From Malacoraja senta (lineage: Eukaryota): DNA of 64,000 bases. Every line of letters begins with the position of its first letter. Within the stretch, counting starts at the first letter, position 1. Below, piece by piece: positions 78 to 62,755 of the stretch. A program made the position numbers and the translations under genes. The stretch is taken from assembly GCA_038087875.1 (NCBI GenBank), contig CM075989.1:5642001-5706000 (forward strand), read 5' to 3'. Below the pieces are notes generated by a model that saw only the letters and a program-made list of their open reading frames with translations, was not told the DNA's origin and did not search any database.

Positions 78-240
78 TTAAGAAGGAACTGCAGATGCTG
101 GAAAATCGAAGGTAGACAAAAGTGCCTGGAGAAACTCAGCGGGTGCAGTCTGAAGAAGAGTATCGGCCCGAAACGTTGCCTATTTCCTTCGCTCCATTGA
201 TGCTGCTGCACCCGCTGAGTTTCTCCAGCACTTTTTACTA
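78..240. mobile_element. Fold-back PLE pLTR-derived mini-element
   Basis: Inverted pLTR arms with a hammerhead-like centre; 14 bp direct repeat CCAAATATATGTAT at 64-77 and 241-254. Confidence 0.75.
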
Positions 241-261
241 CCAAATATATGTATACTGTAG

Positions 262-620
262 AGTAACTCAGCGGGACAGGCAGCATCTCTGGAGAGAAGG
301 AATGGGTGACGTTTCAGGTCAAGACCCTTCTTCAGACTGAAGTCAGGGGAGTGGGTGGTACACAAATAAGGAAGTGTATAGATAATGAAGTGTAAGGTGT
401 GAAAACAGGACAAAGGGAATGGAGATCAATGAACATGTGGAATAGATCATTGTTAGTTGGGGGAAGGTAACAACAAAGCAAACAGAGATAAAATGTAGTC
501 GGAAAACCGGGAAAGGGGAGGGGATGGAGAGAGAGGGAAAGCAATGGCTACTTGAAGTTAGAGAAGTCAATGTTCATACCGCTGGGGTCCAAGCAAAATA
601 TGAAGTGCTGTTGCTCCAAT
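262..620 (-). mobile_element. Penelope-like element 3' fragment
   Basis: Reverse-complement homology to the 4180-4740 element (GIY-YIG end, UTR, hammerhead motif at ~305-340). Confidence 0.7.
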
Positions 621-684
621 ATGTTGGCATGGACATAATGGGCCAAAGGGCCTGTTTCTGTGCAGGACAACTCCATGGTTGTTC

Positions 685-1770: not shown

Positions 1771-1825
1771 ACACTTTCCTACTACCTACGAGGTTCTTAA
1801 ACTGACCTACACAACCCTAACCCTG

Positions 1826-2013
1826 GATACACAAAAATGCTGGAGAAACTCAGCGGGTGCAGCGGCATCTATGGAGCGAAGGAGATAGGCAACGTTTCGG
1901 GCCGAAACATTGCCTATCTCCTTCGCTCCATAGATGCTGCTGCACCCGCTGAGTTTCTCCAGCATTTTTGTGTACCTTCGATTTTCCAGCATTTGCAGTT
2001 CCTTCTTAAACAG
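1826..2013. mobile_element. Fold-back PLE pLTR-derived mini-element
   Basis: Near-perfect palindrome at 1828-1974; direct repeat CCCTAACCCTG at 1815-1825 and 2014-2024. Confidence 0.8.
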
Positions 2014-2526: not shown

Positions 2527-2562
2527 GGGTGACGTTTCGGGTCGAGACCCTTCTTCAGACTC
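2527..2562 (-). ncRNA. Minimal hammerhead ribozyme motif (PLE pLTR-derived), intact core
   Basis: The reverse complement reads AGAGTCTGAAGAAGGGTCTCGACCCGAAACGTCACCC, identical to the copy at 49261-49297. Confidence 0.7.
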
Positions 2563-4179: not shown

Positions 4180-4740
4180 GTTTCGCTGAACACCTCCGCT
4201 CAGTCTGCCGAGACTTACCTGATCTCCCGGTTGCTAAATACGTTAACTTCCCGTCGTATTCCCACACTGACCTTTCTGTCCTGGGCCTCCTCCACTGTCA
4301 GAGTGAGGCCCAACACCAATTGGTGGAACAGTACCTAATTTTTCACTTGGGCAGCTTACAACCCAGAGGTAGGAATATTAACTTATCTAACTTTGTAACC
4401 TTTGTATTCCTTCTCCCTCCATCCCTCTCCCATCCTAGTTCTCCGACAGACTGACTGGGCTTCTGATTAAATTTTACATTGTATACCTTGTTGTCAACCC
4501 CCTCACTAATAATGATCTATTCTACATTTTCCTTGATCCTCATCCCCTTTGATCTCTCGTTTTTCACACCCTACCCTTCCATATCTCTTGTTTCCTTCTC
4601 CCCTGACTCAGTCTGAAGAAGTGTCTTGACCGGAAACGTCACCCATTCCTTCTCTCCAGAGATGCTGCCTGTCCCGCTGAGTTACTCCAGCATTTTGTGT
4701 CTATCTTCAGCATAAACCAGCATCTGCAGTTCCTTCATGC
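4180..4740 (+). mobile_element. Penelope-like element 3' fragment: GIY-YIG endonuclease C-terminus plus pseudo-LTR with hammerhead motif
   Basis: Translation FAEHLRSV...LPVAKY..FPSYSHTDLSVLGLLHCQSEAQ..LVEQYLIFHLGSLQPRG.NI resembles the PLE GIY-YIG C-terminus. It is followed by a pyrimidine-rich UTR and CTGAAGAAG...GAAACGTCACC at ~4613-4643. Confidence 0.8.
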
Positions 4741-6855: not shown

Positions 6856-7189
6856 CAATCATACGTAATTACAATGGCTCAAGGGTACCTAAGTATAGTG
6901 TACCCCACCCCCACATCAGTCTGAAGAAGGGGCTCGACCCGAAATGTCACCTATGCCTTCGCTCCACAGATGCTGCCGCACCCGCTGAGTTTCTCCAGCA
7001 TATTTGTCTACCTTCGATTTTTCCAGCATCTGCAGTTCCTTCTTAAACACTAAGTGTTAATCGTTTTTGGATGCAGTTTAGTGATAATCCTGCTATACAT
7101 TGGGCACAATCATACCAAGTATAAAAGTGTAAGATAGTAGACCGTATTGAGTCAGTAGACATGAGTCTCCATGTTTTTACGATATGATA

Positions 7190-13067: not shown

Positions 13068-13689
13068 CGAGGCAGCATCTCTGGCGAAAAAGGCTTGGTG
13101 ACGTTTTGGGTCGGGACCCTTCTTCAGACAAGACACTTCTTCATCCATCCTTTTTCTCCAGAGTCGCAGCCTGACCTGCTGAGTTCGTAGAAATCTGCCG
13201 TTCTTTGCATTCTACAAGCATTCCACCAGACTGTGCTTCTGATTGTAAACTGCAAAGTAGGTAAACAGTGGCATCAAATGACTGTAATTTACACAATATG
13301 CCCCTTCGAATCTGAACCCAGGAAATAAATAGCAGCAAGCTTCCATGAATCCTGCTCCTAATGCCAGACCTGAAAAACCTTCTCTGAACTAGAACGCTGC
13401 TTTCAAATAAGCTCCCACTGAACATCCCTTTGAGCTCTGGAGGAACGGCCTGAGAGGTACGAGATTCTACCGCTCTTTGAGGTTCGACCAGCAACCAAAG
13501 GGACTGGAAACAGCTGCATTCTGACAACTTGCATTGATTTTCCAGACACACTTCATTTCCTTGTGCATGAGGAGAGGACCACAATCCCAGTTACCGGACT
13601 ACTCTCAAATTCTGCTCGGAAGTAGCAACTATTAAACAGATTCTGATCAATTGGTGGCATGGTGGCGCAGTGGTAGAGTTGCTGCCTAA

Positions 13690-15237: not shown

Positions 15238-16590
15238 TTACAGCACCAGAGACCTAGGCTCGTTCCCGACCACGGGTGCTGTCTATACGGAGTTTGTACA
15301 TTCTGCCCGTGACCGCGTGGGTTTTCTCTGAGACCTTCAGTTTTCTCCCACACTCCAAAGACGTACAGGTTTGTAGGCTAATTGGCTTGGTATAAATGTA
15401 AATTGTCCCTAGTGTGTGCAGGATAGTGTTAATGTGCGGGGAGCGCTGGTTGGTGGGCCAAAGGGCCTGTTTCCGCTCTGTATCTCTGAACTAAACAATT
15501 GAAATCTTGCACACTCTCTAATTCCTTATCAGCAATCACAATACATTCTTAAAAGGACTAACATTTAATAAAAGCTACATGCTATCCAATCCCCTATTTG
15601 CATTTATTCTTGGTAAAGATAACTCTCAAGGATTTACAAATCTAAGGATCCCAGCAGTTATCGGGCAACTGAACATCCTACCAACAACTAGAGAGCAGTC
15701 CTGAGCTACTATCTACCTCATTGGACACCCTAGGATTATCTTTGATCGGACTTTACTCGACTTTATCTTGCACTAAATGGTATTCCCGTTATTCCCTTTA
15801 TCATGTGTCTGTACACTGTGGATGGCTCAGTTGTAATCATGTATTGTCTTTCCACTGACTGGATAGCACGCAACAAAAGCTTTTCACTGTACCTCGAAAC
15901 ACGTGACAATAAACTAAACTCAACTCAACCTAAGATAGACACAAAATGATGGAGTAACTCAGCGGGACAGGCAGCATCTCTGGAGATAAGGAATAGGTGA
16001 CGTTTCGGGTCAGTCCGAAGTAGGGTCTTGATCTGTTCCTTCTATCCAGGGATGCTGCCTGTCCCGCCAAGTTACTCCAGCATTTTGTGTCTATTTTCGG
16101 TGTAAACCAGCATCTGCAGTTCCTTCCTACACATTTTGTCAACTCAACCTTGTATACGTCAAAGGATGAATCAATCCGTGATACTTCATTCTCACAATGA
16201 TCCTCGTGCTGTGCAGCAATTTTAACCTTTGTCGTTCTGCAGACAAGATGCATCCTCCAAACAGGGGCAAATAGCAGCAACGACAATAAGCCAGGAGTCA
16301 TCCATTTGTCACCAGAATCCAGAGTGGTTTTGGCTGAAGGGACTGTCTCCATAGTAAAAACAAGTGAATGTGCAAAATGGCTCCATTTGAAATGCATTTC
16401 ACAACAGGACGCAATCTGTTGTACTCAGCTGAAGATAAAAGCCACAGACTAAAAGCATAATTCTGAAGACCAGCAAGCCTGAAATGTGAATGCAGGGAAA
16501 ACTTAACAAGTTGGACGCAGCCTTGATCCAGCGTGTGATCCCAGCAAGGGATCACATTTCAGTGAGATATTAAGGCTGTAGCATGTAGAT

Positions 16591-16985: not shown

Positions 16986-19311
16986 ATGTAGACAGAAACG
17001 AGCACAGGTTTCCAGTGCACACTGTCACAAGTCACACCATTCTGGTACTCAGTTCTTAAAGTTACAGTTGCCATTTTATACACTATTATATATGCATCAC
17101 ACAGGAGGAGGCCATTCGACCCATCATGCCGGAAAAGCAAAATATACTGTCCCTCCTGGAGTGGCAGTGCCAGTGACCATTCCTGAGAGTGAATCCACAG
17201 AGAGGCAACAGGTCCGGATGGAGTCCCTGGCCACTTCCGAGGGACCTGTGCGAATCAGAGCTGGCTGTGGTATTCACGGGCATCTTTAACATCTCACTGC
17301 TCCGTTCTGAGGTTCCCACCTGCTTCGAAAAGACCACTATCATCCCGGTGCCAAACAGTAGCGGTGGCACGGAGGCGCAGTGGTAGAGTTGCTGCTATAC
17401 TGCGCCAGAGACCCGGGTTCGATCCTGACCGTGGGTGCTGTCTGTGTGGAGTTTGCACATCTAAGTCAGTACCTAAGCCACCAAAAGCTTCAATGTGGAA
17501 ACAAAGAACTGCAGATGCAGGTTAATACACAAAAAGGACATAAAGTGCTGGAGTAACTCAGCAGGTCAGGAAGCATCACTGGAGTTTTGGGTCAGGACGA
17601 GGAGTCCCGACCCGTAACGTCACCTGTCCATGTTCTCCAGGGATGCTGCCTAACTGCTGAGTTACTCCAACACTTTGTCTCTTTATTTGTGACATTGTGC
17701 TTTGCTCCATAGACAGTGTAACCTGATGGCACTTATCATCACCCCAGGGAAAAGCCATGGGACTCAAAGGTAATCTCACAGCTAAATATTAACTAAACTG
17801 GAGTTTGCATGGGTTCTGAGATCAGTGCACTCCCAGACCAGAACCAATAAGTGCCGGAGGTAGTGGTGGAAGAATATTTTTGCTTGTAATGTTCAAAAGG
17901 TATTTGGATAAATGCTTGAAGAATAATAACATTGAGAGATATGGAGAAAGAATGGGGAAGAGGCATTAATTAGATTACACGATCGGAATCACAGAGTCAT
18001 ACACCATGGTAACAAACCCCTTTGACCCATCCATCCCACTCTGACCAATAACCACCCATTTACACTAATCCTGTACTAATCCCATGTCAACTAGATCAAG
18101 TCCTGGTGGATTCTCCCTCACGCCCACAAACTAGAAGCAATGTACAGTGGCCAAACTGACCAAACAGTCTGAACAATGGTCCTCACCTGAAACATCACCC
18201 ATTCCTTCTCTCCAGAGATGCTGTCTACCACTTACTCTTTCTGTCCTACCCTATGTCACTTTCCAAAATACACTCGTCCAGAGTAGTTCAGCTTAGAGAT
18301 ACATGGAAACAGACCCTTCAGCCCATCAAGGTCACACTGACCATCAATCAAGAGTCAAGTCAAGAGTTTTATTGTCATGTGTCCCAGATAGGACAATGAC
18401 ATTCTTACTTGCTGCAGCACAACAGAATATGTAAACATAATACAAAACAGAAGATAAAAGTTCAGTGTGTCTATAGACAATAGACCATATATACACAATA
18501 AATAAACAGATGAAGTGCAATAATAATAATAGACTTATTGTTCAAAGCTTATTTGATGTCGTGTTTAATAGCCTGATGGCTGTGGGGAAGCAGCTATTCC
18601 TGAACCTGGATGTTACCTGTACCTTCTTCCCGATGGCAACGGAGAGATGAGTGTGTGACCAGGATGGTCTTTGAGGATGTTGGCAGCCTTTTTGAGATAG
18701 CGACTGCGATAGATCCCTTCGATGGTGGGGAGGTCAGAGCCGGTGATGGACTGGGCAGTGGTCACAACTTTCTGCATTCTTTTCCACTCCCGGACGTTCA
18801 AGTTGCCGAACCAGGCCACGATGCAGCCAGTCAGTGGCCAATCGTCTGTTCACACTCGTTCTATGCTATCCCACTTTCTCATCCACTCTTTACACACTCG
18901 GGGCAATTTACAGAAGCCAATTCACCTAAAATCCCACACGTTGTTTGGATGTGGGAGGGAATAGGTGACGTTTCGGGTCGAGACCCTTCGTCAGACCTGA
19001 CGCGACCCGAAACATCACCTATTCCTTTTCTCCAGAGATGCTGTCTGACCCGCTGAGTTACTCCAGCATTTGGTGTCTATTTAAGATTTATTACCGATGT
19101 ACAGTGAAAAGCTTGGTTTTATATGCTATCCAATCTGAGCAGATAAACTCAAGTACAATAGATAGAGCAAAGGGGAAGACACAGAGTGCAGAATATAGTT
19201 GTCAGCACTGTAGCGCAGCAGTTCCACAGACAAAGGCCAATGTCCATAATGAGGTAGAGGTGAATTGGACAGTAGGTTGACTTATGGAAGCACCGTTTAG
19301 AAGCCTGACAA

Positions 19312-22292: not shown

Positions 22293-22817
<525 letters not shown>

Positions 22818-23334
22818 TTCAGTAAATAAGCCTGACGGGAGAGATAATGACCAAGATGTATTTGAGGAGGTTCAATCACAGTTCAGCCATTTCCACATTA
22901 CACTTGTGAAAAGCAGTGGGGTGAATTGTACTTTGACCGGAGGTGAGGTGGTTTGCGGTGAATTCATCACCGTTTGACCTTAACTCCCGCGATTGCCTCC
23001 ATCGAGCTATTTCCCCGTCGATCTTGCTCCAACGCTCAATCTCCTGCCTGTCTGTCCTAACATTTTTGTATTCATGTAGTTCCCGGTGGAAATGTGTCCA
23101 TGAATGCATTTGTGAAGCTTGTTAGGACATATTTAGAAAGCTAAAGATGTCGATGGCATAACACTAGTTGCAACAGAGTGTGTAAGAAGGAACTGCAGAT
23201 GCTGGTTTAAACCGGAGGTAGACACACAAAAAAAAAGCTGGAGTAACTCAGCGGGACAGGCAGCATCTCTGGAGAGAAGGAATGGGTGACGTTTCGGGTC
23301 GAGAGCCTTCTTCATTACACTCTACTGCATTCTA

Positions 23335-23935
23335 CTGCAGTTGTACAGGGTCTTGGTGAGACCACACCTGGAGTATTGCGTACAGTTTTGGTCTCCAAAT
23401 CTGAGGAAGGACATTATAGCCATAGAGGGAGTGCAGAGAAGGTTCACCAGACTGATTCCTGGGATGTCAGGACTTTCATATGAAGAAAGACTGGATAGAC
23501 TTGGCTTATACTCGCTAGAATTTAGGAGATTGAGAGGGGATCTTATAGAAACGTACAAAATTCTTATGGGGTTGGACAGGCTAGATGCAGGAAGATTGTT
23601 CCCGATGTTGGGGAAGTGCAGGACAAGGGGTCACAGCTTAAGGATAAGGGGGAAATCCTTTAAGACCGAGATGAGGAAAAACTTTTTCACACAGAGAGTG
23701 GTGAATCTCTGGAACTCTCTGCCAGAGGGTAGTTGAGGCCAGTTCATTGGCTATATTTAAGAGGGAGTTAGATGTGGCCCTTGTGGCTAAAGGGATCAGG
23801 GGGTATGGAGAGAAGGCAGGTACGGGATACTGAGTTGGATGATCAGCCATGATCATATTGAATGGCGGTGCAGGCTCGAAGGGCCGAATGGCCTACTCTT
23901 GCACCTATTTTCTATGTTTCTATGTTTCTATGTTT
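23335..23935 (+). mobile_element. CR1-clade LINE 3' fragment
   Basis: ORF 23341..23736; (TTTCTATG)n tail. Confidence 0.92.
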
Positions 23936-24315
23936 CAGACTCGTTAGGGATAAGGGAAACGAGAGATATAGACGATGATGTGGAGAGATAAAGAACAATG
24001 AATGAAAGATATGCCAAAAAAGTTCCGATGGTACAGGAAACTGGCCATTTTTAGCTGTTTGTGAGGTGAAAACGAGAAGCTGGTGCAACTTGGGTGGGGG
24101 AGAGATAGACAGAGAGGGAATGCCGGGGTTACATGGAGTTAGAGAAATCAATATTCATACCACTGGGCTATAAGCTGCCCAAGCAAAATATGAGATGCTG
24201 TTCCTCCAATTACCGTTTTGCCTCACTCTGACAATGGAGGGGGACCTAGGACAGAGAGGTCTGTGTGGGAATGGGAAGGAGAATTAAAGTGTTTAGCAAC
24301 CGGGCGATCAGGTAG
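23935..24315 (-). mobile_element. Penelope-like element 3' fragment
   Basis: Translation PDRPVAKHFNSPSHSHTDLSVLG (ORF 24223..24423) plus a PLE-type UTR. Confidence 0.75.
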
Positions 24316-25598
24316 TGTAATGAACTGTAAACGTGTTGAGCATCCACATCTAAATCTTGCCATCCACACGCCAGTCTCCATCACTAATCCCATGTTATCT
24401 CTAGCTCTGTTTTCCCCATCCACTTTCCTACAGTCATCAGCTTCTTAAGTGGACCAGAACGAACTAATCCTACATCAGCAACAGTGATGAGCGTTTGACG
24501 GTGCTGGGCCTGTACTCGCTGGAGTTTAGAGGAATGAAGGGGGGAACCTCATTGAAACGTTCAGAATAGTGAAAGGCTTGGATAGAGCGGATGCAGAGAG
24601 GATGTTTCCACTAGTGGGAGAGTCTAGGACTAGAAGTCATAGCCTCAGAATTAAAGGACGTTTGGTTTAGTTTAGAGATACAGTGCGGAAACAGGCCCTT
24701 TGGCCCATCAAGTCCACACCGACCAGGGATCCCTGCACATCAACACTATCCCACACACGTTAGGGACAATTTACACATACACCAAGCCAATTAACCTACA
24801 ATCCTGTATGTCTTTGGAGTGTGGGAGGAAACTGAAGATCATGGAGAAAACGTTATTTTAGGAAGGAGAGGATTTGAGTGTAGGGCCCTGTACAACTGCA
24901 GAAACCAGCATCTGCTGTTCCATTCTACATACAATGGACCACCTCTTGCACCACCTTGGACTTGTTTTCCAATTGTGTTTTGCACCACTACCCTGTTTGT
25001 TTTTTTTGCACAGTCTTTTTCATTTCAGTGTCTTATAGAAATCATGTGCAATTTGTGCATGGTTTGTGTTTTGTGTGTTGGGTGAGTCTGTGCCTGCCAT
25101 TTTGCTGCATGCAAGCCTTTCACTGCACCCATATCTAACTTTACTGGTGCACGTGAAAATAATATGGCAGATTCTTCCCTGCTGTTATCAAGCAACTGAA
25201 CCATCCTCTCATCAACTAGAAAGTGGACCCGAGCACCCATCTACCTCACTGGAAACCCGTGAACTATCTTTGATCGAACTTTACTGAACTTTATTAGTTA
25301 GTTGAAATTAGATGAATTTATTGTCGTGTGTACCGAGGCACAGTGAAAAGCTTTTGTTGCGTGCTAACCTGCCAGCAGAAAGACAACATATGATTACCAT
25401 CCAACCATTCGACAGTGTACTGAAATTTAAAAGCATGGGGCGATTGTAATATGTGATTAGATTCAAGTTTCAAGATTCAAGAGAGTTTATTGTCATGTGT
25501 CCCAGATTGGACAATGAAATTCTTGCTTTGCTTCAGAGCAACAGAAGGCATAAATAAATACAGAACAGATCAGTGTGTCCATATACCATTGAATATAT

Positions 25599-32840: not shown

Positions 32841-34269
32841 TGCATGTCTTGGTTCCCACATCAGTAACTTCCAAAGTACTTACTTGGTTGTCATGGAGGA
32901 GATACAGGAGAATGCAATTCCTAAAATCTGGAACAAAAAACAAACTGCTGGATGAGCTCAGTGGGTCAAGCAGCATCTATGGAGGCAAAACATCGATTCT
33001 CCCTTTGCCTCCACAGATGCTGCTTGACCCGTTGTGTTCCTCCAGCAGTTCATCTTATGCTCATTGTCATGTGTATCGAGTCATCCTTAAGTCGTGCAGG
33101 GCGTGTCATTATTGTGCTCTCATTGTATTAGGATTCCACTGGTGAAGGCGATAATCTATTGTTCTGATGCCATGGGACAGGCACCATTCATAAGGTATTG
33201 CCGGAAACCATTAGTTTAGTTTAGTTTAGAGACAGAGAGCAGAAGTTGTCTTGTTTCGACCTGAAACGTCATCCATTCCTTCTCTCCAGAGATGCTGCCT
33301 GTCCCGCTGAGTTACTCCAGCATTTTGTGTCTATCTTCAGTTTAAACCAGCACATGCCATTCCTCCCTACACAGTGCTGAAGCAGGCCTCTCGGCCCACC
33401 AAGTCCACGCCGACCAACAATTCCAATACACCATGGACAATTTTGTACAATTTTACCAAGCCATAGTCTACAAACCTGTACGTCTTTGGAGTGTGGGAGG
33501 AAACCGGAGCATCCGGAAAAAACACGCGCAGGTCACGGGGAGAACGTACAAACTCCAGACAGACAGCACCCGTAGTCAGGATCAAGCCCGGGTCTTTGGC
33601 GCTGCAAGGCAGCAACTCTATCACTGCGCCACCCTGCCGCCCTAACATTAACCAAATGTTAAACAATTTCACCTGGATCCCATTCACATGCCCTTTTCCT
33701 GTAGCAGCTGCGAACATCTAGAGGGAAGACACTGACTGCAGATAGGTGTGAATAGTGTATAAAATCGTCAGGGTGAATGTACATGAAAGAACTAGAGGGC
33801 ATAGCTTTACGTTTAGAGGGGAAATAATTAAGGTCAGCTTTTTCACTGAGAATGGTATATATATGGAACGGGCTTCCAAAGGAAATGATTGAGGCAAGTA
33901 TAATAACAACACTTAGAAAACGTTTGGAAAGTTACTTGTACGGGAAAGGTTCAGAGGGAAATGGATCAAATATGGGCAAATGGGACTAGTTTAAATGAGA
34001 ATATTGGTTGGCATGGAGAAGATGGGCCGAAGGGCCTGTTTCCGTACTGTATGACTAAGTGTAGGAAGGAACTGTAGATGCTGGTTTACAATGGAGATAG
34101 ACACAAAATGCTGGAGTAACTCAGCGGGTCAGGCAGCATCTCTGGGGAGAAGGAATAGGTGACATTTCAGGTCAGAACCTTTCTTCAGACTAAATTTTAT
34201 GACTATCTTCTGCATGATTCTAAGTATCTTCTCAGCCAGTGGTATTGATGTCGGATGGAGCAGCAATGT

Positions 34270-36187: not shown

Positions 36188-36250
36188 TTCACTCTGGGAA
36201 CTGAATGCTGGCCAAGTGTTTTTCTGGCTGACTGGCTGCAGTCAATTGCT

Positions 36251-36449
36251 GGTAGACAAAAGTGCTGGCGAAACTCAGTGAGTGCGGCAGCATCTATGGA
36301 GCGAAGGAAATAGGCAACGTTTTGGGCCGTTTTGGCCCGAAACATTGCCTATTTCTTTCGCTCCATAGATGCTGCCGCACCCGCTGAGTTTCTCCAGCAC
36401 TTTTGTCTACCTTCGATTTTCCAACATCTGCAGTTCCTTCTTAAACACT
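36251..36449. mobile_element. Fold-back PLE pLTR-derived mini-element (gnrhr intron)
   Basis: Palindrome at ~36251-36412; direct repeat AGTCAATTGCT at 36240-36250 and 36450-36460. Confidence 0.8.
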
Positions 36450-36659: not shown

Positions 36660-37170
36660 TGTAGGAAGGAACTGCAGATGCTGGTTTGCGCCAAATGATA
36701 GGCGCAAAGTGCTGGAGTAACTCAGTGGGTCAGGCAGCATCTCTGGAGAAAAGGAATAGGAGATGTTTCGGTTTGGGACCCTTCTTCAGACTGTACCATA
36801 GAGAAGGCCAGAACACAACAGGGTCGGCAACAGATGACCTCAGGAAGGGTGGAGCCCACAATGATCCATTGTTGGCTGGGGAAGGTGGTCTAACGCGATG
36901 GATCCAAACAATGGAACATAGGATGACTAGGGTGGGGAAGGGGGTGGGGAGGGGGGTGGGGAAGAGGTGGGTGGGGGGGGGAGAAAGAATGCAGTAGTTA
37001 CTTGAAATTAGAGAAATCAACGTTCATACCCCTGGGGTGTAAGCTGCCCAAGCGAAATATGAGGTGCTGTTCCTCCAATTTGCGCTGGGCCTCACTCCGA
37101 CAGTGGTGAGGCCCAGGCCAGAACGGTCAGTGTGGGAATGAGAAGGGGAGTTAACATGTATGGCAAGCAA
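36660..37170 (-). mobile_element. Penelope-like element 3' fragment in the gnrhr intron after coding exon 1
   Basis: Same GIY-YIG end, UTR and pLTR organisation as the 4180-4740 element, on the minus strand. Confidence 0.75.
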
Positions 37171-38269
37171 GAGATCATAAATCAGCATCTGTAGTTCTTT
37201 CCTACAGATTTAATGTTCAGTTTTGTCTGGAAAACTCTAGTCCATTCCTATTGATTAACAGAAGTTTACAACCAAGCAAAATCATCCTGTACCAGTGAAA
37301 ATATTTTATTAAAGCTATTGCACTGACAAGTTTCTGAAAGCACTGTTTTAGTGTTTAGTTTAGAAATACAGCATGGAAACAGGTGCTTCGGCCCACTGAT
37401 TCCATGCCCACCAACAATCACCCATACACACACTAGTTTATGTTATTTCCACTTTCATAAGGTCATATGTGATAGGAATAGAATTAGCCCATTCAGTCCA
37501 TCAAGTCTACTCTGCCATTCAATCACGGCTAATCTATCCCTTCCTCCCAACCCCATTCTCCTGCCTTCTCCCCATAACCTCTGACACCTAAACTAATCAA
37601 GAATCTACCTATCTCTGCCATAAAAATATCCACTGACTTGGTCTCCACAGCCTTCTATGGAAAACATTTCTACAGGTTCACCACCCTCTGACTAAAGAAA
37701 TGTCTCCTCATCTCCTTCCTAAAAGAACATCCTTTAATTCTAAGGCTATGACCTCTAGTCCTAGATTCTCCCACCAATGGAAACATCCTCTCCACATCCA
37801 CTCTATCCGAGCCTTTCACTATTGTGTATGTTTCAATGATGTCCCCCCTCGATCGTGTGTTCACACTCGTTCTATGCCATCCCACTTTCTCATCCACTCC
37901 CTACGCACTCGGGCAATTTACAGGCCAATTAGCCTAAAAACCCGTACGTCTTTAGGATGTGGGAGGAAACTGGAGCACCTGGAGGAAACCCACGTGGTCA
38001 CTGGGAGAAGGTGCAACACAGACAGACAGCACCCGAGGTCAGGATCGAACCCGGGTCTTTGGCGCTGCGAGGCAGCAACTTTTTACCAGCTGTCCCATTC
38101 TGCAGCTGTACGGTGCAGATTGAAGCTGCTGCAATGTTATTACTTAAAGCATTCTCAGGTTCAGTATAACAGAGTATAAATACAAAGTAAAGCTCTATCA
38201 GCACTTAAACGATTCAAACGCCACCCGTGATCTGCAATATCATTTCCCCATTCTAGACATTGTTAGTTA

Positions 38270-41865: not shown

Positions 41866-44312
41866 TAAAGCACCTTCCTGCACAGTCCCTGTTATAAGCT
41901 GGAAAAAGCACAACAGCCTTTTTGTACACAAAATATTCCCATAAGTAGTAGTGAGCTAAATTTTAAGATGACCTTTAAATATACTTTGCATTTATTATGT
42001 GCTAATGAACACTGTTAGCTTTAAATATTGCAGTAAATTCAATCTGCATCAAAAAATGCAATACAGTTGTTGGCAGTAATGCTTTCACTACTTGTCTGTT
42101 GTGGTTAGTTAGTGTTCGGAATGGACTAGAATTTGGTTGTATGGTCAGTGATCTAATGCAACCATTTGATGAAGCTGCTTGCAGCATTATACAAACCAGT
42201 ACTGCCCGCAGACTACTGCAGAAAGAAGCACTCTGAGCTTAAATCTGGTTTATTATTGTCACAAGGACTGAGGTACCGTGGAAACCTTTGCCTTGCGTGA
42301 TATCGGCTATCAAGTCAAACTCAAGGACAATAGAACACAAGAGAATAATGCAGCAATGGGCTCTCACCCATGTTTATGCTGTTTCCCACTGGGCAAAACG
42401 CCACGCATTCAACCGCAGATGCTAAACCAAGACAGACATAAAGTCAGGAAGGTCAAGTGTTCAGGAGAGATCAGGTTAAGAAGCGTCTTTGCTTGGAGGG
42501 GTGCTGTCTTGGCAAAGAGAATGGATTGTTTTAAAAATGAGTTGGGTTAAGGAATAGAGCGATCATGTAAGGCAGCCTATACATGAGACTCAAAGTGCAA
42601 AGGCTGCACGGTGGAAGGATATCGCCGTTATAGATATCATTTTACAGACTTCATTAGAGACCATTACATCAAAGGAATCAAACATCTACCACCTTGGATA
42701 GACATTGGCAATGGCAGGCAGAGTAGCTAATTCAGCACGCCAATGGGCTCTTCGGCCCACGATGCCGTTAAAATGATCCCATCTGCCTGTACATGATCCG
42801 AATCCCTCTATTCCCTGCCCCTCCATGTGCCCGTTTAAGAGCCTCATAAATGCCACTGTCGTGTCGGCCTCCACCACCACCCCTGGCAGCGCGTTCCAGG
42901 CGTCCACCACTCTCTGTGTAAAACAACTTGCCCCGCACGTCTCCAGTGAACTTTTCCCCTCTCAGCTTATGCCCTCTAGTGTTGGACATTTCCACCCTGG
43001 GAAAAAGGTTTTGACTGTCTACCTTATCTATGCCTCTCATCATGTTACATACTTGTATCAGGTCTCCCCTCAACCTCTGGCATTCCAGAGAAAACAAGCC
43101 AAGTCTGTCCAACCTCCCCCTGTAGTTGAAACCCTCTAATCCATAACTGCCATGATGAGCTGAAAAAATGTAAGACTCTATTCAAACTAAAAACACTCTT
43201 CAGAAACAAAAGATTGAATGGTTATGAGCTGGACCAGTGATTTTCTTTTCTGTTTGGTTATTTCTCGTTTGTGGACTGTTCAACAGATTTTGGGTCCATT
43301 TGTTCCCATTATTTTGTTTTTCCATGAAAATGTATAGAAAATAAGAGGGGGTAGGACCAGAAAAGTTTTTGAACTTCTTCTTACCCCTTTTGAACATGAA
43401 CGATATTATTTGTATTATTTGAGTTACTTATTTGTTTGTTTTCCTTTGTGTTTTATTTTATTTTTTATTGCTTATAAGTTTATTTGTGTTTGTATTTTTT
43501 AACATGTTCAGCAAAGAAACAAATTTAAAAAAAAATCCTAAAAAAAATAAATCCTGGCAGCATTCTGATAAACCACCCTCTCCAGAGTCTCCACATTCTT
43601 CCAATAATGGGGTGACCAGAACTACACGCAATAAAATTCAGCCTGACATAGTCCTATAGAGCTGCATCATGACTTCCTGACTAATACTCAATCTCCCTAG
43701 CAATGAAGGCAAGTATAAAATACACCTTCTTTACCACCATATCTACTTGTGCTGCCACCATCAGTGAGCTATGAACTTGGACTTCCAGATCCCTCTGAAG
43801 GTACAGAGGGGTGTATATAGAATGCAGAATATGGAGTCTTAGCTTGGCCATAGAGTCCTGGCTGTGGCACTGGGACGGAGTTACATGGGTTGTCCTGGCC
43901 AAGTGATGTGTCAATGTCATCCACCGCTGTTCCATTTCCAGAGACAAAGTCCAAAGTCCGCAATGGGATACAGGTGAATCAGACAATGCCCTATCTTGTG
44001 GAAGGACCATTCACAAGTCTGATAGCAAAGGGGAAGATAGGCACAAAATGCTGGAGTAACTCAGTGGGACAGGCAGCATCTCTGGAGAGACATCTCCAGA
44101 GGTGCTGCCTGTCCAGCGGTTACTCCAGTATTTTGTGTCTATCTCCGATTTAAACCAGCATCTGCAGTTCGTTCCTACACAGCAAAGGGGAATAAGCTGT
44201 TTCTGAGTCTGGTGGTGCATGCTTTCAAGCTTCTGTATTTAGGTATTAGAATTGAGAAGACAAAGGTTCATGAGCATGTTATGAAACACTGTACCTGCGA
44301 TTTCTCTTGCAG

Positions 44313-45925: not shown

Positions 45926-47015
45926 ACATGTCTTTTAAATGTTGTTACTGAACCTGCCTCAACTACATTCTCTGGCAGCTAGTTCCATAAACCCACCACC
46001 CTCTGAGAAACTGAAGAAGGGTCTCGACCCGAAACATCACCCATTCCTCCTCTCCAGAGACGCTGGAGTTACTCCAGCATTTTGTGTCTACCATTTGAGA
46101 AACTATATACTACACTCTGGTATTGTTCTCTTTCCCACCTTTTATACCTTTAGTACTTGTAATTATATTCATGCAGAGTGATACCTGATTTGCTTGAATA
46201 GCACTCAAGCCAAAGCTTCTTACACATAACAATAATAAACTAGGCCTAAGCCTCAAAGGTTGCCCCTTAGGTTTCATTGAAAACTTTCCCCTCTCACATT
46301 AAACCTAAGCCCTCCAGTTCTTGATTCCTAAAACACTGTACATTCACCCAATCTATTCCCCTCATGATTTTATACACCCTTGGAGTGGTGTGTTAGGACG
46401 TTCACCCTTACTGACCGAGAAGAATTTGGTCGCATTTACCAGACACAAGGAATGTCAGGTGCTGGTTTACAAAAAAAAACACCCAAAGTGCTGGAGTAAC
46501 TCAGCAGGGCCAGGCAGCATCTCTGGAGAACATGGATAGGTCACCTGAAATGTCATCTATCCATGCTACCCAGAGATGTTGCCTGTTCCATTGAGTTATT
46601 CCAGCACTTTGTGTCACTTTTATTGACAGCGCCATTGAGATGGTCAGTTAAATATAATTGACTCGTGTCTCTCTCGAGGCAGAACGGGAACATGAAACAA
46701 ATTGGTATTTAGGCACTAAAGTGTTTGTGGCAGTTGTTTGAGGATAGGACTGACTACACTCAGATTCATTTCAGAATGTCAAGTCATTGTCTTGACTTCT
46801 ATAGTCATCAATATCACGTCAACAACATTCATTGACTAAGCTCACAAACAAGCGTTTACTGATGGAGTGATCTATTGTTTATCGATCTTGCACGACAAAG
46901 AGAAAGCGAGAAAAGATAAATTACAGTAAGAATGTCGTCAGAATGAAAATTATTTTTAAAAATCTATATCCTGATGAAAATGGGAGATTGGTTTGTTTTT
47001 GTGTTTTCATTTCAG

Positions 47016-47506
47016 TATTGTCGAAGGAAGTGCATTTAAGACGATCAAAGAACAACATACCCAAGGCTCGACTGAGGACCCTAAAGATGAGCATTATCAT
47101 TGTGACATCCTTCATTGTTTGCTGGACTCCCTACTACCTCCTGGGACTCTGGTACTGGTTCTCCCCAGAGATGCTGTCTGAGGAAAGGATCTCGCCTGCA
47201 TTAAGTCAGATCCTCTTCATCTTTGGTCTCTTCAACACCGTCTTGGATCCCATCACCTATGGGCTTTTTACCATCCATTTCAGGAAGAGTCTCCAGTGCT
47301 GCTGCCACTCGGACAAGACCGCGTCCAACTTAGATCTCAACACTACGCAGACGGGCTCCTTCAGGTGCTCGGGGTCGTCTTTTCGCCTCAAAAAGTTAAT
47401 TGCGCTTGGTCAAGAGGGTCAAAGGTCAATCGCGGAGAACGAGTCCCACAGCAACAGCAGCTATTGCAAGAACGGTTATCTTGACGCACCAGGAGGTTGC
47501 CAGTGA
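47016..47506 (+). CDS. gnrhr: GnRH receptor coding exon 3 (ICL3, TM6, TM7, cytoplasmic tail, stop)
   Basis: Acceptor ttttcatttcAG, with phase matching exon 2 (T+TA=Leu). Contains LRRSKNNIPKARLRTLKMS, CWTPYYLLGLWYWF and DPITY, then a tail with CCC and Ser/Thr clusters, ending at TGA 47504-47506. Confidence 0.95.
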
Positions 47507-48787
47507 AAGCACTAACACACGGTGCAGAAGCCTGATCCTCCTGTAGTCCTGAAACACAAAGTACAGAAGACTGATGTGTCCTTGCGTAGTCTTGTATTAG
47601 GGAGCAGGCCGGTCTAACTGCAAGTAACAGCTTGGTTGGTGTGTGCATGATTTGATTTTGCCAACTCTACCCATGGTCGAACGTTGCTGTCTTTCCCACT
47701 TTGGTGACTGCCTTTCTTGCCCTTGTGAGTTACAACAAAGGCACCATTCTGCCCGTCCACTCCATCCTATCCCCTGTGTAAGGGCAATCAAGCCTCCCTC
47801 CACGGCCCTGGTGATGCAACCCCTTCTTCGCTCCTCCATCAAAGTAAATTGGTCTGAAAATACTGGTCTTGAACCAAGAGGATCCTTCTCATCAGAAGTG
47901 AAGCCATGTAATGTTCAGACACAAAGGTATTTATAAACTGTGTTCTCATCTCTGTGAGAAGCACCTTTAAATATTTCAACTCTTCAAATAGTTTGGGAAC
48001 GTGAAAGCTTTCAGAAACTCTGATGTCGTGTTACTTATTTTGAAAATCGGAAAAGTGATCATCTCCTCCAATAACCGACTAGCCTGTCAAACTGGCTGGA
48101 GAGACACCACAGGAAGAGTCAAATGCAAGTGGACCTCGCAGTGTCTGGGCCGGCTGCAAGACGTCCTTCCTCCTGCTCCATCAATATCAAAGCTCATTCC
48201 ATCAACTTCATGCAGTTGCATCTCTTTAGAGCACTTTGCGTAAAGTCTGAAGAAGGGTCCCAACCCGGAACGTCACCAGTCTGAAGAAGCGGTCTAACCA
48301 AAATCGTCACCTATCCATGTTCTCCAGGAATGCTGCCTGACCCGCTGTGTCACGCCAGCGCATAGTGTCTCGCTTTATAATGTAAAATCAATGTGGATAA
48401 TCAATGCTTTAAGACAAGGGTCTGAAGAAGGGTCTCGACCCAAAACGCCACCCATTCCTTCTCTCCAGGGATGCTGCCTGGCCCGCTGAGTTACTCCAGC
48501 ATTTTGTGTCAATCAATGCTTTTCAACAATCTGCAACTTGTAAATGTTCATCGTTAATCTGCTTCGGCCCGTCTCCATTTGACATCCAAATCACAGCTGG
48601 AAAATCCTTCCAAGCCCAGACCAACACATTCAGAATACAAAGTGTAGATTTAATATAAATTCTATTTTTTAATGGAGATTACTTTTGTCATGAAACCCTT
48701 TCTCCTTCAGTCAACTGTGATGGGTTTACCACTGCTTTGTGAACGAGTGATGATTATTTTCTCAATACATCGACAGGATTCTTATTT

Positions 48788-49074: not shown

Positions 49075-49233
49075 AGGGCCTGTCCCACTTGGCCGTCATT
49101 TGCGCGTCACGCAGTTGGCGCGCCACTGCCTATGTCATCGCGCACCATGCGTTCATCACGTGTGTGTCACGACGCACGCTTAAATGACGTCGCGTAAATT
49201 ACGCGCAAATGACGGCCAAGTGGGACAGGCCCT
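49075..49233. mobile_element. Harbinger-type MITE, 159 bp
   Basis: Perfect 33 bp TIR AGGGCCTGTCCCACTTGGCCGTCATTTGCGCGT; TTA TSD on both sides. Confidence 0.92.
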
Positions 49234-49263
49234 TTACTTTCCCAATTTCATTCAGACCTAAGA

Positions 49264-49297
49264 GTCTGAAGAAGGGTCTCGACCCGAAACGTCACCC
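49264..49297 (+). ncRNA. Minimal type I hammerhead ribozyme motif (PLE pLTR-derived), intact core
   Basis: GU-CUGAAGA-A-GGGU(CUCG)ACCC-GAAAC-GUC^AC: intact catalytic boxes, stem II, a palindromic ACGU stem III, and a GUC triplet ending at 49293. Confidence 0.7.
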
Positions 49298-49635
49298 TTT
49301 CCTTCTCTCCAGAGATGCTGCCTGTCCAGCATTTTGTGCCTGACGTCTCTCAGTCCTTATTAACAGTGCTTCATCCTCAAATCTAACTTTCCCTAACTGA
49401 TCCACACTTTTCATAACTTCATGTTCAGCAGTTATAGGAGCAGAGTTAGGCCGTTCTGCCAACCAAGTCTACCCTGCTATTCAATCACGGGTGATCTATC
49501 TTTCCCTCTCACCCCCATTCTCCTGCCTTCTCCCCAATACTAATTAGGAATCTGTCAAACTACGCCTTAACATCCATTATCTTGGCAATCACAGTCTTCT
49601 GTTGCAAAGAATTCCATGGAATCGCCACCCTATTT

Positions 49636-49935
49636 GGGCAGCACGGTGGCGCAGGGGTAGAGTTGCTGCCTTACAGCGCCAGAGACCCAGCTTAGATCTT
49701 GACCACGGGTGCTGTCTGTACGGAGTGTGTACGTCCTCCCCGTGACCTGTTTGGGTTTTCTCCAGGTGCTCCGGTTTCCTCCCACACTCCAAAGACATAC
49801 ACATTTGTAGGTTAATTGGCTTGGTATAATTATAAATTATTCCTAGTGTGCATAGGATAGTATTAGTGTGCAGGGATCGGAATCGGTGGACCGAAGGGCC
49901 TCTTTCTGCGCTGTATCTCCAAACTAAACCAAACT
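49636..49935 (+). mobile_element. V-domain tRNA SINE
   Basis: Same family. Confidence 0.85.
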
Positions 49936-50582: not shown

Positions 50583-51026
50583 CAAAAGAGGGCGCCATCT
50601 CTGTGAAATGGATTGCCACAGAAGGGGTGTGGTGGCCAAGACAATGGATGTTTTTAAGGCGTAGATTGACAGATTCTTGATTAGTCGACTGTTGCACCAC
50701 CATGCTGCCCAGTGTGATGTGATGTGAAACGAACAGCGTTCAGTCAGACAAATCTGGAGTTGGGCAAACTTCCCTTTGAAGAGGTTTGAAGAGCCTTAAA
50801 CTGTTGGATCAGGGAAAGATCCTCATGGGAGACCTGGATAGAGTGGATGTGGAAAGGATGTTTCCACTCGTGGGAGAGTCTCGGACCTGAGGGCATAGCC
50901 TCAGAATAAAAGGACGTGCCTTTAAAAAGGAGAAGTGGAGGAATTTCTTTAGTCAAAGGGTAGTGAATCTATGGAATTCATTGCCACAAACGACTGTGGA
51001 GGCCAAGTCAATAGATATTTCTAGGA

Positions 51027-51153
51027 GGTCCACAAAAATGCTGGAGAAACTCAGCGGGTGCAGCAGCATCTAGATGCTGCTGCACCCGCTGAGTTTCTCC
51101 AGCATTTTTGTGTACCTTCGATTTTCCAGCATCTGCAGTTCCTTCTTAAACAC
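51027..51153. mobile_element. Fold-back PLE pLTR-derived mini-element inserted in a CR1 3' fragment
   Basis: Palindrome centred on GCATCTAGATGC; direct repeat AGATATTTCTAGGA at 51013-51026 and 51154-51167. Confidence 0.8.
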
Positions 51154-61760: not shown

Positions 61761-62755
61761 ATGGACCATTAGGTGCTCTTTGGTCATCGGTGCTGACTCT
61801 GATCGGTAACGTACCTTTTCATACTTCTAGTTTCCCTCTCCCCTAACTCTCAGTCTGAAGAAGGATCTCGACCTGCACGTCACCTATTCTTTTTCTCCAG
61901 AGTTGCTGTCTGACCCACAGAGTTACTCCAATTATTTGTGTCTCTCTTCCGCTGAGTTACACCAGCATTTTGTGTCTATCATCAGAGAGACCGATATTGA
62001 GAGAGAGCCTAAGAATACACAGAGGCAATTTGGACTTAAATATTCATGAGTCAGCAGTGAACAAGCAATTGACTTCAATAAAATTGCAGGCATCCGCTGC
62101 CTTCTGGTAATACTAAGCTCGCATTTTGCTCAGTGAAGGTCAGCTGGAAGTGAAGCAGAATCTGCCACATCATGAAAGTGTGACCAGCTGACCTAACACC
62201 AGGTGTAGAGTTCACAGTGTAGCAATCCAATCGGCTTTCTCTTGAGTTTAATTAAAACTTGGAAAAAAGGAACGCTGTCTGCATTCATCACGTTAGGTCC
62301 GAAGGGATTTAACGGCGGAATATTAAATGCAGCCACAACAAAACAGCTGACTTAATGCATTGCATTTAAAGGAGGTAGGCACTTTGAAATAAAGAAGCAG
62401 TGAGAAAGAAAACAGCAGCTTGTGAGTTCACACAAATGGTTTTCAAACAGTTTCGGAATGTACTGATTTAAGAATAAACTCAACTCAACGAATTTAAAGA
62501 ATTAAGTATAAAGGTTGAGGATGAGTCTTTAATTTACAAAATTGAATTTTATTCAGCATCAAAAACATATTGAAAACGGCACGGTGGCGCAGCGGTATAG
62601 TTGCTGCCTCACAGCGCCAGAGACCCGGGTTTGATTCCGACTACGGGAGCTGTCTGTACTGAGTTTGTACGTTCTCCCCGTGATTTGCGTGGGTTTTTCC
62701 CGAGATCTTCGGTTTCCTCCCATACTCCAAAGCCCTACAGGTTTGTAGGTTAATT

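What the first reader, a model, noticed from the sequence alone, without database searches (positions are those of the whole stretch)
49264..49297. Dense population of minimal hammerhead ribozyme motifs from Penelope-like pseudo-LTRs
Seen: the motif GTCTGAAGAAGGGTCTCGACCCGAAACGTCACC, or decayed versions, recurs roughly two dozen times on both strands (+ ~148, 4611, 6918, 20406, 46011, 48245, 48419, 49264, 61853; - ~305, 2527, 13097, 18963, 34157, 36762). It folds as CUGANGA + extra A / stem II GGGU-CUCG-ACCC / GAAAC-GUC with a palindromic ACGU stem III. At 4180-4740 it sits just downstream of a GIY-YIG C-terminus. Established: Penelope-like elements carry minimal type I hammerheads in their pLTRs that are thought to cleave as dimers. 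Inference: one of the commonest repeats here is a ribozyme-bearing pLTR rather than a conventional SINE.
Basis: partly seen in the sequence, partly recalled or inferred. Interest (0 to 1): 0.72.

Follow-up and report, generated by a model that had tools for sequence, protein, structure and literature searches.

The report
Penelope-element terminal repeats with minimal hammerheads
A roughly 130-base repeat covering about 7% of this window (likely from a skate or ray) is the end-piece of a Penelope-like jumping gene and starts with a predicted minimal self-cutting RNA of an already described type; most copies are decayed, so it is a known kind of element at high density.

Summary
Observation confirmed. 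A profile finds 49 fragments (6.8% of the window, 0 in the reversed control). Twenty span the motif and only 6 still fit a minimal-hammerhead descriptor (0 in 30 shuffles). All 4 GIY-YIG endonuclease remnants in the window are followed 191-213 nt later by the motif. Their closest homologues are RT+GIY-YIG Penelope-like proteins, and the named close ones come from skates and rays. The motif fits the published PLE min-HHR consensus, with a helix I of only 2 bp. Cleavage is untested; covariation is not above shuffles and core conservation is only suggestive (p 0.08-0.10). New details: 26 of 49 fragments form 13 head-to-head palindromes, 6 of them with 9-14 nt target-site duplications; 15 of 44 free 5' ends sit at the ribozyme's first two bases and 1 of 44 at the cleavage site. 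Most copies are therefore likely dead cDNA fossils of the uncleaved 5' end of the PLE transcript, not a working ribozyme population. All these features have precedents in other PLEs. Verdict: new member of a known kind, modest interest.

The parts
49264..49295 (+). Focal minimal type I hammerhead motif: helix I 5' strand 49264-65, CUGAAGA 49266-72, extra A 49273, stem II 49274-77/49282-85 with 4-nt loop, GAAA 49286-89, palindromic ACGU 49289-92, predicted cut after C49293, helix I 3' strand 49294-95
   Evidence: consensus in PMC4209133 Fig. S3
49263..49346 (+). Focal solo pLTR fragment (profile positions 1-98, 14-nt internal deletion, no tail, no TSD found); 49252-49258 is a short inverted copy of its first bases that would pair with the core in read-through RNA
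2529..2560 (-). Intact hammerhead motif in solo pLTR 2447-2561
18965..18996 (-). Intact hammerhead motif (N7 = C) in the left arm of palindrome 18955-19095
306..337 (-). Hammerhead motif with G10.1-U11.1 wobble, downstream of an endonuclease remnant
34159..34190 (-). Hammerhead motif with A-U at 10.1-11.1 (the only two-sided pair change seen) in solo pLTR with tail 34062-34191
6919..6950 (+). Hammerhead motif with 3-bp stem II; copy 6918-7045 keeps about 20-40 nt of upstream 3' UTR
4182..4397 (+). GIY-YIG endonuclease C-terminal remnant of a 5'-truncated PLE (to the stop codon)
4398..4609 (+). Pyrimidine-rich 3' UTR, 213 nt from stop to first base of the repeat
4610..4738 (+). pLTR core with decayed hammerhead (stem II broken) and tail (about 4708-4740)
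259..637 (-). 5'-truncated PLE: endonuclease end (551-637), 3' UTR, pLTR start
36662..37200 (-). 5'-truncated PLE of another subfamily: endonuclease end (37001-37200), different 3' UTR, pLTR with tail; hammerhead decayed
23183..24321 (-). 5'-truncated PLE (endonuclease end 24138-24321) apparently split inside the ribozyme core by a LINE 3' end at about 23330-23936
61790..61990 (+). Copy with upstream 3' UTR, decayed hammerhead and a short tandem repeat of the downstream part
79..234 (.). Head-to-head pLTR palindrome, 14-nt TSD, tail on one arm
1825..2008 (.). Head-to-head palindrome centred on stem II, 11-nt TSD, tail on one arm
15926..16129 (.). Head-to-head palindrome, 12-nt TSD, tail on one arm
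36239..36443 (.). Head-to-head palindrome, TSD of at least 9 nt, tail on one arm (its MIR8670 Rfam score is below gathering and reflects the hairpin)
44033..44177 (.). Head-to-head palindrome without ribozyme, 12-nt TSD, tail on one arm
51025..51148 (.). Head-to-head palindrome without ribozyme, 14-nt TSD, tail on one arm
13068..13220 (.). Older head-to-head pair, no TSD found (likewise 17503-17690, 18955-19095, 32938-33050, 46447-46620, 56090-56270, 58891-59029; a 14th pair at about 31924-32020 has a short arm below the profile threshold)
48244..48378 (+). Tandem duplication of the 34-nt ribozyme unit; both cores broken
48420..48535 (+). Solo pLTR, core broken (G12A, U16.1C); other solos at 2158-2285+, 18166-18227+, 20405-20508+, 22174-22297-, 33237-33369+, 39437-39549-, 46011-46097+

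Best explanation
The repeat is the ~130-nt pseudo-LTR core of an endonuclease-bearing, likely Neptune-type Penelope-like retrotransposon; it begins with a predicted minimal type I hammerhead that would cut after C17 only as a dimer or with the element's protein, and most copies are likely dead reverse-transcripts of the uncleaved 5' end of the element's RNA. Shown: the motif, its position about 200 nt after the endonuclease stop, the palindromes with TSDs, two preferred 3' ends about 30 nt apart, and a pile-up of 5' ends at the motif's first two bases. Inferred: (1) in a partial-tandem master the upstream pLTR is the promoter and transcription likely starts at base 1, in an Initiator-like TCAGT context (Inr consensus recalled, not tested); (2) the PLE protein nicks both target strands 9-14 nt apart and starts reverse transcription inside the RNA at one of two sites (profile positions about 100 and about 133), as shown in vitro for the anole Poseidon element (PMC11167929); (3) cDNA runs about 100-130 nt to the RNA's 5' end and gives a solo copy with a whole ribozyme, or two cDNAs primed from opposite strands join head to head and give a palindrome with the tail on one arm; (4) longer copies come from priming at the downstream pLTR and truncate in the endonuclease; (5) inserted copies decay neutrally, mostly at CpGs, which hits G12 and the ACGU palindrome; (6) selection for cleavage acts only on master elements. 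Odds: identity as PLE pLTR with a min-HHR motif about 0.93; masters cleave with dimer or protein help about 0.65; uncleaved 5'-end template about 0.6.
For: 4 of 4 endonuclease remnants are followed on the same strand by the motif after 213, 213, 191 and 206 nt. The 72-aa peptide has 162 homologues at E <= 0.001; of 18 scanned, 10 list GIY-YIG and 4 of these also RVT_1, mostly below Pfam's cut-off. P0115 (816 aa) has DKG, YIDD, a linker C-x4-C-x2-C motif and YIGET, the linker finger marking Neptune/Nematis (PMC8557442 introduction). The motif matches the published consensus, including the extra base before G10.1, G10.1-C11.1 and the palindromic 15.2-16.2 (PMC4209133). Descriptor hits 6 against 0 in 30 shuffles. 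Five long copies are 45-65% alike over 80 nt upstream of base 1 (10 pairs) but 82-97% alike over 78 nt downstream (6 pairs). 7 of 8 recurrent non-CpG changes in the motif are tolerated (N7, loop, N17, wobbles), about 0.001 by a post hoc count. Neighbouring fragments: 13 head-to-head, 1 tail-to-tail, 2 tandem (p = 0.002). TSD of 9 nt or more in 6 of 13 palindromes, 1 of 21 other units, 19 of 1122 mismatched flank pairs. 5' ends: 15 of 44 at positions 1-2, 1 of 44 at 31-33 (hand-called). In public contigs the listed loose-end consensus breaks off just before base 1 in 3 of 4 runs, and behind two places (about 4698-4708 and 4736+) in all 4. In the anole element unprocessed RNA is the main template, both strands are nicked and extended, and the ribozyme needs the protein (PMC11167929).
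Against: No cleavage data. Covariation is not above shuffles: 1 pair with a two-sided change, 314 of 500 shuffles as high (16 of the 20 spanning copies). Core versus flank mismatch 7/191 versus 59/839, p = 0.10; positions with recurrent variants 1 of 11 versus 22 of 55, p = 0.08, and U16.1C, which should be damaging, recurs in 3 of 29 insertions. Helix I is 2 bp; the hammerhead fold scores -3.9 against an MFE of -5.9 kcal/mol, and a one-core dimer -9.4 against -21.1. No PLE RT or full-length element lies in the window, so RT linkage and clade rest on homologues, with no tree. The one-arm tail pattern (9-10 of 13, none with two) is not significant alone (p = 0.12 and 0.055). Most solos have no TSD. 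A solo could continue into the 3' UTR of an unsampled subfamily: the real long copy 36792 did not score against the others, although solo flanks are less pyrimidine-rich (0.28-0.60 versus 0.68-0.85). The start-site reading has no RNA evidence.
Confidence: 0.76

Rival explanations
1. The repeat is PLE-derived, but the solos and palindromes are a self-propagating non-autonomous family (SINE-like or retrozyme-like) copied from a few short masters that happen to begin at base 1, and are mobilised in trans by the PLE protein.
For: Sharp common 5' end; a large excess of pLTR over endonuclease sequence in the window (49 fragments versus 4 remnants) and in laid contigs; non-autonomous pLTR derivatives are described (bioRxiv 10.64898/2026.07.22.740005; PMC8557442).
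Against: A solo starting at base 1 lacks the upstream promoter part of the pLTR; palindrome centres differ from copy to copy, as expected for junctions made anew at each insertion; several sequence subfamilies share the same start; there are no tandem arrays beyond one broken 34-nt duplication.
Confidence: 0.2
2. The motif is a vestigial hammerhead that no longer cleaves in this lineage and is conserved for another role, such as promoter, PLE-protein binding site or translation start.
For: 2-bp helix I, unfavourable fold, no covariation, almost no ends at the cleavage site; conservation continues about 100 nt past the motif; HHR mutants did not impair insertion in vitro for the anole element (PMC11167929).
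Against: All 11 core bases are canonical in the majority sequence, and recurrent changes fall at tolerated positions; 2-bp helix I occurs in published PLE hammerheads (Drosophila virilis, Culex, Oikopleura rows of PMC4209133 Fig. S3).
Confidence: 0.3
3. The 5' pile-up marks a reverse-transcriptase stop, template switch or splice acceptor (pyrimidine tract plus CAG just before the core) rather than a transcription start.
For: The long copies have a pyrimidine-rich tract ending in AG at bases 1-2; in D. virilis Penelope an intron ends at helix I (PMC4209133); several palindrome junctions show 2-3 nt of microhomology at this point.
Against: Solos share no upstream exon-like sequence; copies keep the AG, which splicing would remove.
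Confidence: 0.25
4. It is a conventional tRNA-derived SINE or a MITE, and the hammerhead likeness is chance.
For: Short, very abundant, partly palindromic.
Against: 4 of 4 links to an endonuclease ORF end; variable TSD length and palindrome centre; no simple-repeat tail; 0 descriptor hits in shuffles.
Confidence: 0.03

Closest known systems
Minimal hammerheads (min-HHR) in pLTRs of metazoan Penelope-like elements (Cervera and De la Pena 2014, PMC4209133)
   Same: CUGANGAH core, extra base before G10.1, G10.1-C11.1, no helix III, palindromic C-G at 15.2/16.2, position in the pLTR downstream of the endonuclease, mostly single dispersed motifs, some pairs on opposite strands.
   Different: No cartilaginous fish in Table S1 or the Fig. 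S3 alignment as read; helix I is 2 bp (short end of their range); stem II is 4 bp; density here is 6 descriptor-intact motifs in 64 kb, against about 4,000 and 9,000 per genome reported for coelacanth and Xenopus.
Poseidon element of Anolis carolinensis (PAc; Frangieh et al. 2024, PMC11167929)
   Same: pLTR hammerhead near the RNA's 5' end; two RT start sites bounding a 30-40 nt tail; no ends at the cleavage site; both strands extended.
   Different: PAc is Penelope/Poseidon clade and was tested in vitro; this family looks Neptune-like by homologues only and is untested. Whether its ORF starts inside the ribozyme is unknown.
Inverted-pLTR Penelope insertions (Adineta vaga, PMC3846280; overview in PMC8557442)
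   Same: Head-to-head inverted pLTRs, palindromic junctions, 8-10 bp TSDs, tail on one arm, Inr-like motif in the pLTR, solo pLTRs.
   Different: Here the whole insertion is just two 50-130 nt arms without ORF, and such units hold 26 of 49 fragments. PMC3846280 explains its palindromes by self-priming on an antisense template; two-strand priming is my inference.
Non-LTR retrozymes of animals (bioRxiv 10.64898/2026.07.22.740005; PMC7229834 seen as listing only)
   Same: PLE-pLTR-derived, type I hammerhead, non-coding; reported from one chondrichthyan genome.
   Different: Retrozymes are tandem arrays (363 bp mean consensus in that chondrichthyan); this repeat is dispersed and inverted, not arrayed.

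Membership tests
PLE minimal type I hammerhead | Core C3 U4 G5 A6 N7 G8 A9, G12 A13 A14 A15.1, U16.1, H17 | tested here: met
   Focal copy and majority sequence; 6 of 20 spanning copies pass the descriptor
PLE minimal type I hammerhead | Extra nucleotide between A9 and 10.1; G10.1-C11.1 pair; helix II | tested here: met
   Extra A invariant in 20 of 20; helix II 89% paired over 16 copies
PLE minimal type I hammerhead | No helix III; palindromic 15.1-16.1 allowing a dimer | tested here: met
   ACGU at 49289-49292; self-duplex only -1.7 kcal/mol
PLE minimal type I hammerhead | Helix I closing the motif | tested here: met
   2 bp only; 2-bp examples exist in PMC4209133 Fig. S3
PLE minimal type I hammerhead | Compensatory covariation in stems | tested here: inconclusive
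   Not above shuffles; copies too alike and neutrally decayed; 7 of 8 recurrent changes tolerated
PLE minimal type I hammerhead | Self-cleavage after position 17 as dimer or with protein | not testable with these tools
   Needs an in vitro assay
EN+ Penelope-like element | C-terminal GIY-YIG endonuclease directly upstream of the 3' pLTR | tested here: met
   4 of 4 remnants, 191-213 nt before the repeat; the window peptide itself has no Pfam hit, its homologues do
EN+ Penelope-like element | RT and endonuclease in one ORF | tested here: inconclusive
   No PLE RT in the window; present in homologues P0115, P0076, P0142 at about 40% identity
EN+ Penelope-like element | Direct or inverted pLTRs, optional 30-40 nt tail, variable TSD, 5' truncation | tested here: met
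   13 inverted pairs, two 3' end clusters about 30 nt apart, TSD 9-14 nt
EN+ Penelope-like element | Full-length copy in partial tandem with an upstream pLTR | not testable with these tools
   No genome held; none in the window
Neptune clade of PLEs | Extra Zn-finger-like motif between RT and endonuclease; RT phylogeny | tested here: inconclusive
   Motif present in all 6 homologues checked, including P0003 and P0017 at 59% and 51% identity; the window remnants are truncated before it; no tree; Nematis shares the motif
Canonical type I hammerhead (Rfam families) | Covariance-model match; 6-bp helix I with loop-loop contact | tested here: not met
   No hammerhead family at E <= 1; helix I 2 bp
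Non-LTR retrozyme | Tandem arrays of monomers, each with an intact hammerhead | tested here: not met
   One 34-nt duplication at 48244-48311 with both cores broken
tRNA-derived SINE | Simple-repeat or poly(A) 3' tail and independence from a coding element | tested here: not met
   Ends at two fixed sites without a repeat tail; contiguous with an endonuclease ORF end
tRNA-derived SINE | Pol III A and B boxes in a tRNA-like head | not tested
   No tRNA scan was run
MITE / DNA transposon | Fixed terminal inverted repeats and fixed-length TSD | tested here: not met
   Arms unequal, centres variable, TSD 9-14 nt

The most novel reading that the evidence does not exclude
Skate and ray genomes carry hundreds of thousands of copies of one hammerhead-bearing pLTR, among the most abundant ribozyme motifs in any vertebrate, and these copies are a natural footprint of the PLE reaction: they start at the transcription start, end at two RT initiation sites, skip the cleavage site, and often arise by priming from both target strands into TSD-flanked palindromes. 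That would show in vivo that PLEs mostly copy uncleaved RNA, that cleavage acts as a brake or a rare processing step, and that such genomes are seeded with ready-made hairpin (small-RNA) templates.
Probability: 0.4. Interest if true: 0.58.

Novelty: new member of a known kind. Interest (0 to 1): 0.34.

Why it matters
PLE hammerheads are known, so the motif itself is not a discovery. The value is quantitative and mechanistic. The role of PLE ribozymes and the origin of inverted pLTRs are open questions (PMC8557442 discussion; PMC11167929). A family this abundant offers very many insertion junctions to test whether templates are cleaved and how palindromes form. It also matters for annotation: about 7% of this window is this repeat, its hairpins mimic microRNA precursors, and homologous endonuclease ends are fused into host gene models in batoid annotations (P0003, P0005).

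Tried and rejected
Rfam scan: no hammerhead hit; only below-gathering miRNA-like scores on the palindromes. Whole genome: none held, so no full-length element or genome-wide count. Pfam on the window peptide: nothing. Word-indexed search for longer proteins: 1 hit among 27 candidates. Pattern scan for unbiased extra copies: 2 matches in metagenome contigs, both GC-rich loci matching only 24-28 profile positions, treated as chance and dropped; 0 in viral contigs. Sequencing runs: no RNA holder listed; the two runs guessed as RNA cannot show expression, and X1 may be the window's own source. Summed contig depth was not used as a copy number. Covariation test negative. Longer helix I: none seen in folds; both flanks are pyrimidine-rich. 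Tail asymmetry not significant alone. Earlier scan findings: nothing returned. Literature searches for a chondrichthyan report: searches returned 0 papers; some searches returned listings with no paper whose title or abstract describes this family; only PMC6155905 and the 2026 preprint were opened from them. Lunse et al. (PMC5785218) is not held; Repbase and Dfam cannot be searched here, so prior annotation as a PLE is likely and not excluded. The preprint's supplements (its chondrichthyan species and retrozyme sequences) are closed and may bear on novelty. MITE, SINE and retrozyme readings were rejected for the reasons in the membership table.

Full report
Observation. The focal 34-mer is at 49264-49297 (+) as written. 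A 28-nt core matches 12 places at up to 3 mismatches, with 0 in 100 shuffles. A profile built from 12 copies finds 49 fragments covering 4327 nt, 6.8% of the window, and none in the reversed window. Twenty fragments span the ribozyme. A descriptor for a minimal type I hammerhead finds 6 motifs, all family members, and none in 30 shuffles. So the density is real, but 14 of 20 spanning copies are broken.

Anatomy of the motif. It reads G2.2 U2.1, CUGAAGA, an extra A, a 4-bp stem II with a 4-nt loop, GAAA, C, G, U, C17, then A1.1 C1.2. This fits the consensus in Cervera and De la Pena 2014 (PMC4209133; I read parts 1-2 of 4 of the text and parts 1-2 of 3 of the supplement). Helix I is 2 bp, the short end of their range. 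Rfam has no hammerhead match at E <= 1. The hammerhead fold is not favoured: z = 0.56 for the 34-mer, -3.9 against -5.9 kcal/mol as monomer and -9.4 against -21.1 for a one-core dimer. That agrees with the low activity reported for such motifs, but it is no evidence of activity.

Link to a Penelope-like element. The peptide at 4176-4391 has 162 homologues at E <= 0.001. Of 18 scanned, 10 list GIY-YIG and 4 of these also RVT_1, mostly below the curated cut-off; in P0002 the RT part resembles the window's LINE remnants and may be a chimeric model. P0115 is a full 816-aa RT-GIY-YIG protein. All 6 homologues checked carry a linker cysteine motif, which marks Neptune and Nematis PLEs (PMC8557442, introduction and passages). 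The window holds 4 endonuclease remnants and no PLE RT. Each remnant is followed on the same strand by base 1 of the repeat after 213, 213, 191 and 206 nt. Four of six homologues looked up carry names, from Leucoraja erinacea, Hypanus sabinus (two) and Rhinoraja longicauda, so the host is likely a batoid; this is inference.

Selection on the ribozyme. Results are mixed. Covariation over 16 of the 20 spanning copies is not above shuffles. Non-CpG core bases mismatch in 7 of 191 cells and downstream bases in 59 of 839 (p = 0.10). Variants recurring in 3 or more insertions touch 1 of 11 core positions and 22 of 55 downstream positions (p = 0.08). Of 8 recurrent non-CpG changes in the motif, 7 are tolerated (N7, two loop bases, N17, three wobbles) and one, U16.1C, is not; a post hoc count puts this near 0.001. 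CpG decay is symmetric: C11.1U in 8, G12A in 7 and G16.2A in 8 of 29 insertions, as expected for neutral decay after insertion. Five long copies are 45-65% alike upstream of base 1 and 82-97% alike downstream, so the conserved block starts at the ribozyme but runs well beyond it. I read this as selection on masters and decay of copies.

Palindromes and tail. Among neighbouring fragments 13 pairs are head to head, 1 tail to tail and 2 tandem (p = 0.002); a 14th pair at about 31924-32020 has a short arm below threshold. Six of 13 palindromes have a TSD of 9-14 nt, against 1 of 21 other units and 19 of 1122 mismatched flank pairs, so each is one insertion event. 3' ends cluster near profile positions 97-104 and at the profile's end, 126-130. 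Nine or ten of the 13 palindromes have the tail on one arm and none on both, which alone is not significant. Inverted pLTRs, palindromic junctions, a one-sided 30-40 nt tail and solo pLTRs are all described (PMC8557442; PMC3846280, passages).

5' ends. Six fragments continue into a 3' UTR and were set aside. Of the 44 others (43 profile hits plus the short arm; boundaries called by hand), 15 begin at bases 1-2 and 1 at the cleavage site, 31-33. The solos share no upstream sequence. A caveat: one true long copy also failed the upstream test, so an unsampled 3' UTR type could be mistaken for flank. In public contigs laid on 4071-4790, 197,617 (X1), 403,389 (X3, 86% read), 25,762 (X18) and 33,745 (X19) records aligned at 80% or more, with depth highest on the pLTR. 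These are not copy numbers, and X1 may be the window's source, but they show a very large family in at least four coded organisms. The listed loose-end consensus breaks off just before base 1 in X1, X3 and X19 but not clearly in X18, and behind about 4698-4708 and 4736 in all four; 2341 loose ends were not shown.

Mechanism. For the anole Poseidon element, purified protein nicks and extends both strands, starts reverse transcription at two internal sites that bound the tail, uses mainly unprocessed RNA, and is needed for ribozyme cleavage (PMC11167929, parts 1-2 of 4; its supplementary figure file gave no text). PLE transcripts start in the upstream pLTR (PMC2377424 and PMC6765202, passages). 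Applied here by inference: transcription starts at base 1, priming about 100 or 133 nt downstream copies back to the RNA end and gives a solo with a whole ribozyme, and priming from both strands gives the palindromes. A template cut at C17 would give copies starting at base 32, which are nearly absent. Rivals are a self-propagating short family, a vestigial non-cleaving motif, and a polymerase stop or splice boundary at base 1.

Context. The focal copy lies about 1.76 kb past the stop codon of a GnRH-receptor gene on the same strand (last exon in 46871-47506; first exon near 34.9-35.4 kb). AATAAA signals lie at 48788, 48899 and 50212. The three sense copies before the first signal all have broken cores; the intact copy lies after the second. 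This is too little to show selection or regulation.

Comparison and novelty. It works like, and by sequence is, a PLE minimal hammerhead; cleavage is the one defining feature untested. It is not a canonical Rfam hammerhead, a retrozyme array, a MITE or a tRNA SINE. No chondrichthyan appears in the parts of PMC4209133 that I read. A 2026 preprint (10.64898/2026.07.22.740005, parts 1-3 of 5) reports hammerhead-bearing retrozymes in one chondrichthyan genome; its supplements are closed and may include this family. Searches showed no paper on it by title or abstract. Lunse et al. on dimer cleavage was seen only as a reference. Repbase and Dfam were not searchable. The Initiator consensus and the SINE and LINE family labels are recalled, not from a call.

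Verdict. It is a new member of a known kind, at high density, with useful insertion footprints. Interest 0.34.

Noticed in passing
window 34921-35400 and 46871-47506 (+): Exons of a GnRH-receptor gene (PDB match E = 1e-51; first exon by tblastn). Copies 48245, 48279 and 48420 lie sense between its stop codon and the first AATAAA, all with broken cores; 48245 keeps an intact ACGU and cut site, so it could in principle be a substrate for the intact 49263 core in read-through RNA.
   Followed up: partly
window 49075-49237: A 160-nt element with about 25-nt terminal inverted repeats and a CG-rich interior just upstream of the focal copy; similar ends appear near 31590-31660, 31890-31925 and 45030; looks like a MITE family.
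   Followed up: no
window 2945-3150, 49636-49840, 58529-58735, 62574-62780 and others: A second very common repeat with a tRNA-like head (families D9, D11-D13, D15-D17, D19); likely the true SINE of this genome (label recalled).
   Followed up: no
window 23330-23936, 11130-11690, 14022-14810, 19358-19880, 35420-36190: LINE 3' ends with an 8-nt repeat tail; one sits inside a ribozyme core, and 11130-11609, 14027-14635, 23330-23936 and 41069-41834 are 94-99% alike, so recently active.
   Followed up: partly
window 11668-12201, 25852-26853, 38405-39331, 27000-27536, 57266-58465, 60040-60387: RT or zf-RVT remnants of other non-LTR retrotransposons.
   Followed up: no
window 20685-21785: 133-nt minisatellite, 8.2 copies, TG-rich, giving long spurious ORFs in all frames.
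   Followed up: no
window 22364-22817: A 227-nt-arm perfect-centre palindrome rich in TA repeats next to pLTR copy 22174-22297; possible assembly artefact or TA-target insertion.
   Followed up: no
window 25599-25798: A 200-base assembly gap of N.
   Followed up: no
P0003, P0005, P0006, P0017: Public batoid gene models that have the PLE endonuclease end fused to host or unrelated sequence, for example a neuromedin-U receptor model: likely annotation artefacts or exonisation.
   Followed up: partly
runs X1 and X3, laid on window 4690-4702 and 4735-4736: Opposite-strand joints linking the two preferred 3' ends (up to 55 contigs each), which suggest tail-to-tail junctions also exist in the genome.
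   Followed up: no
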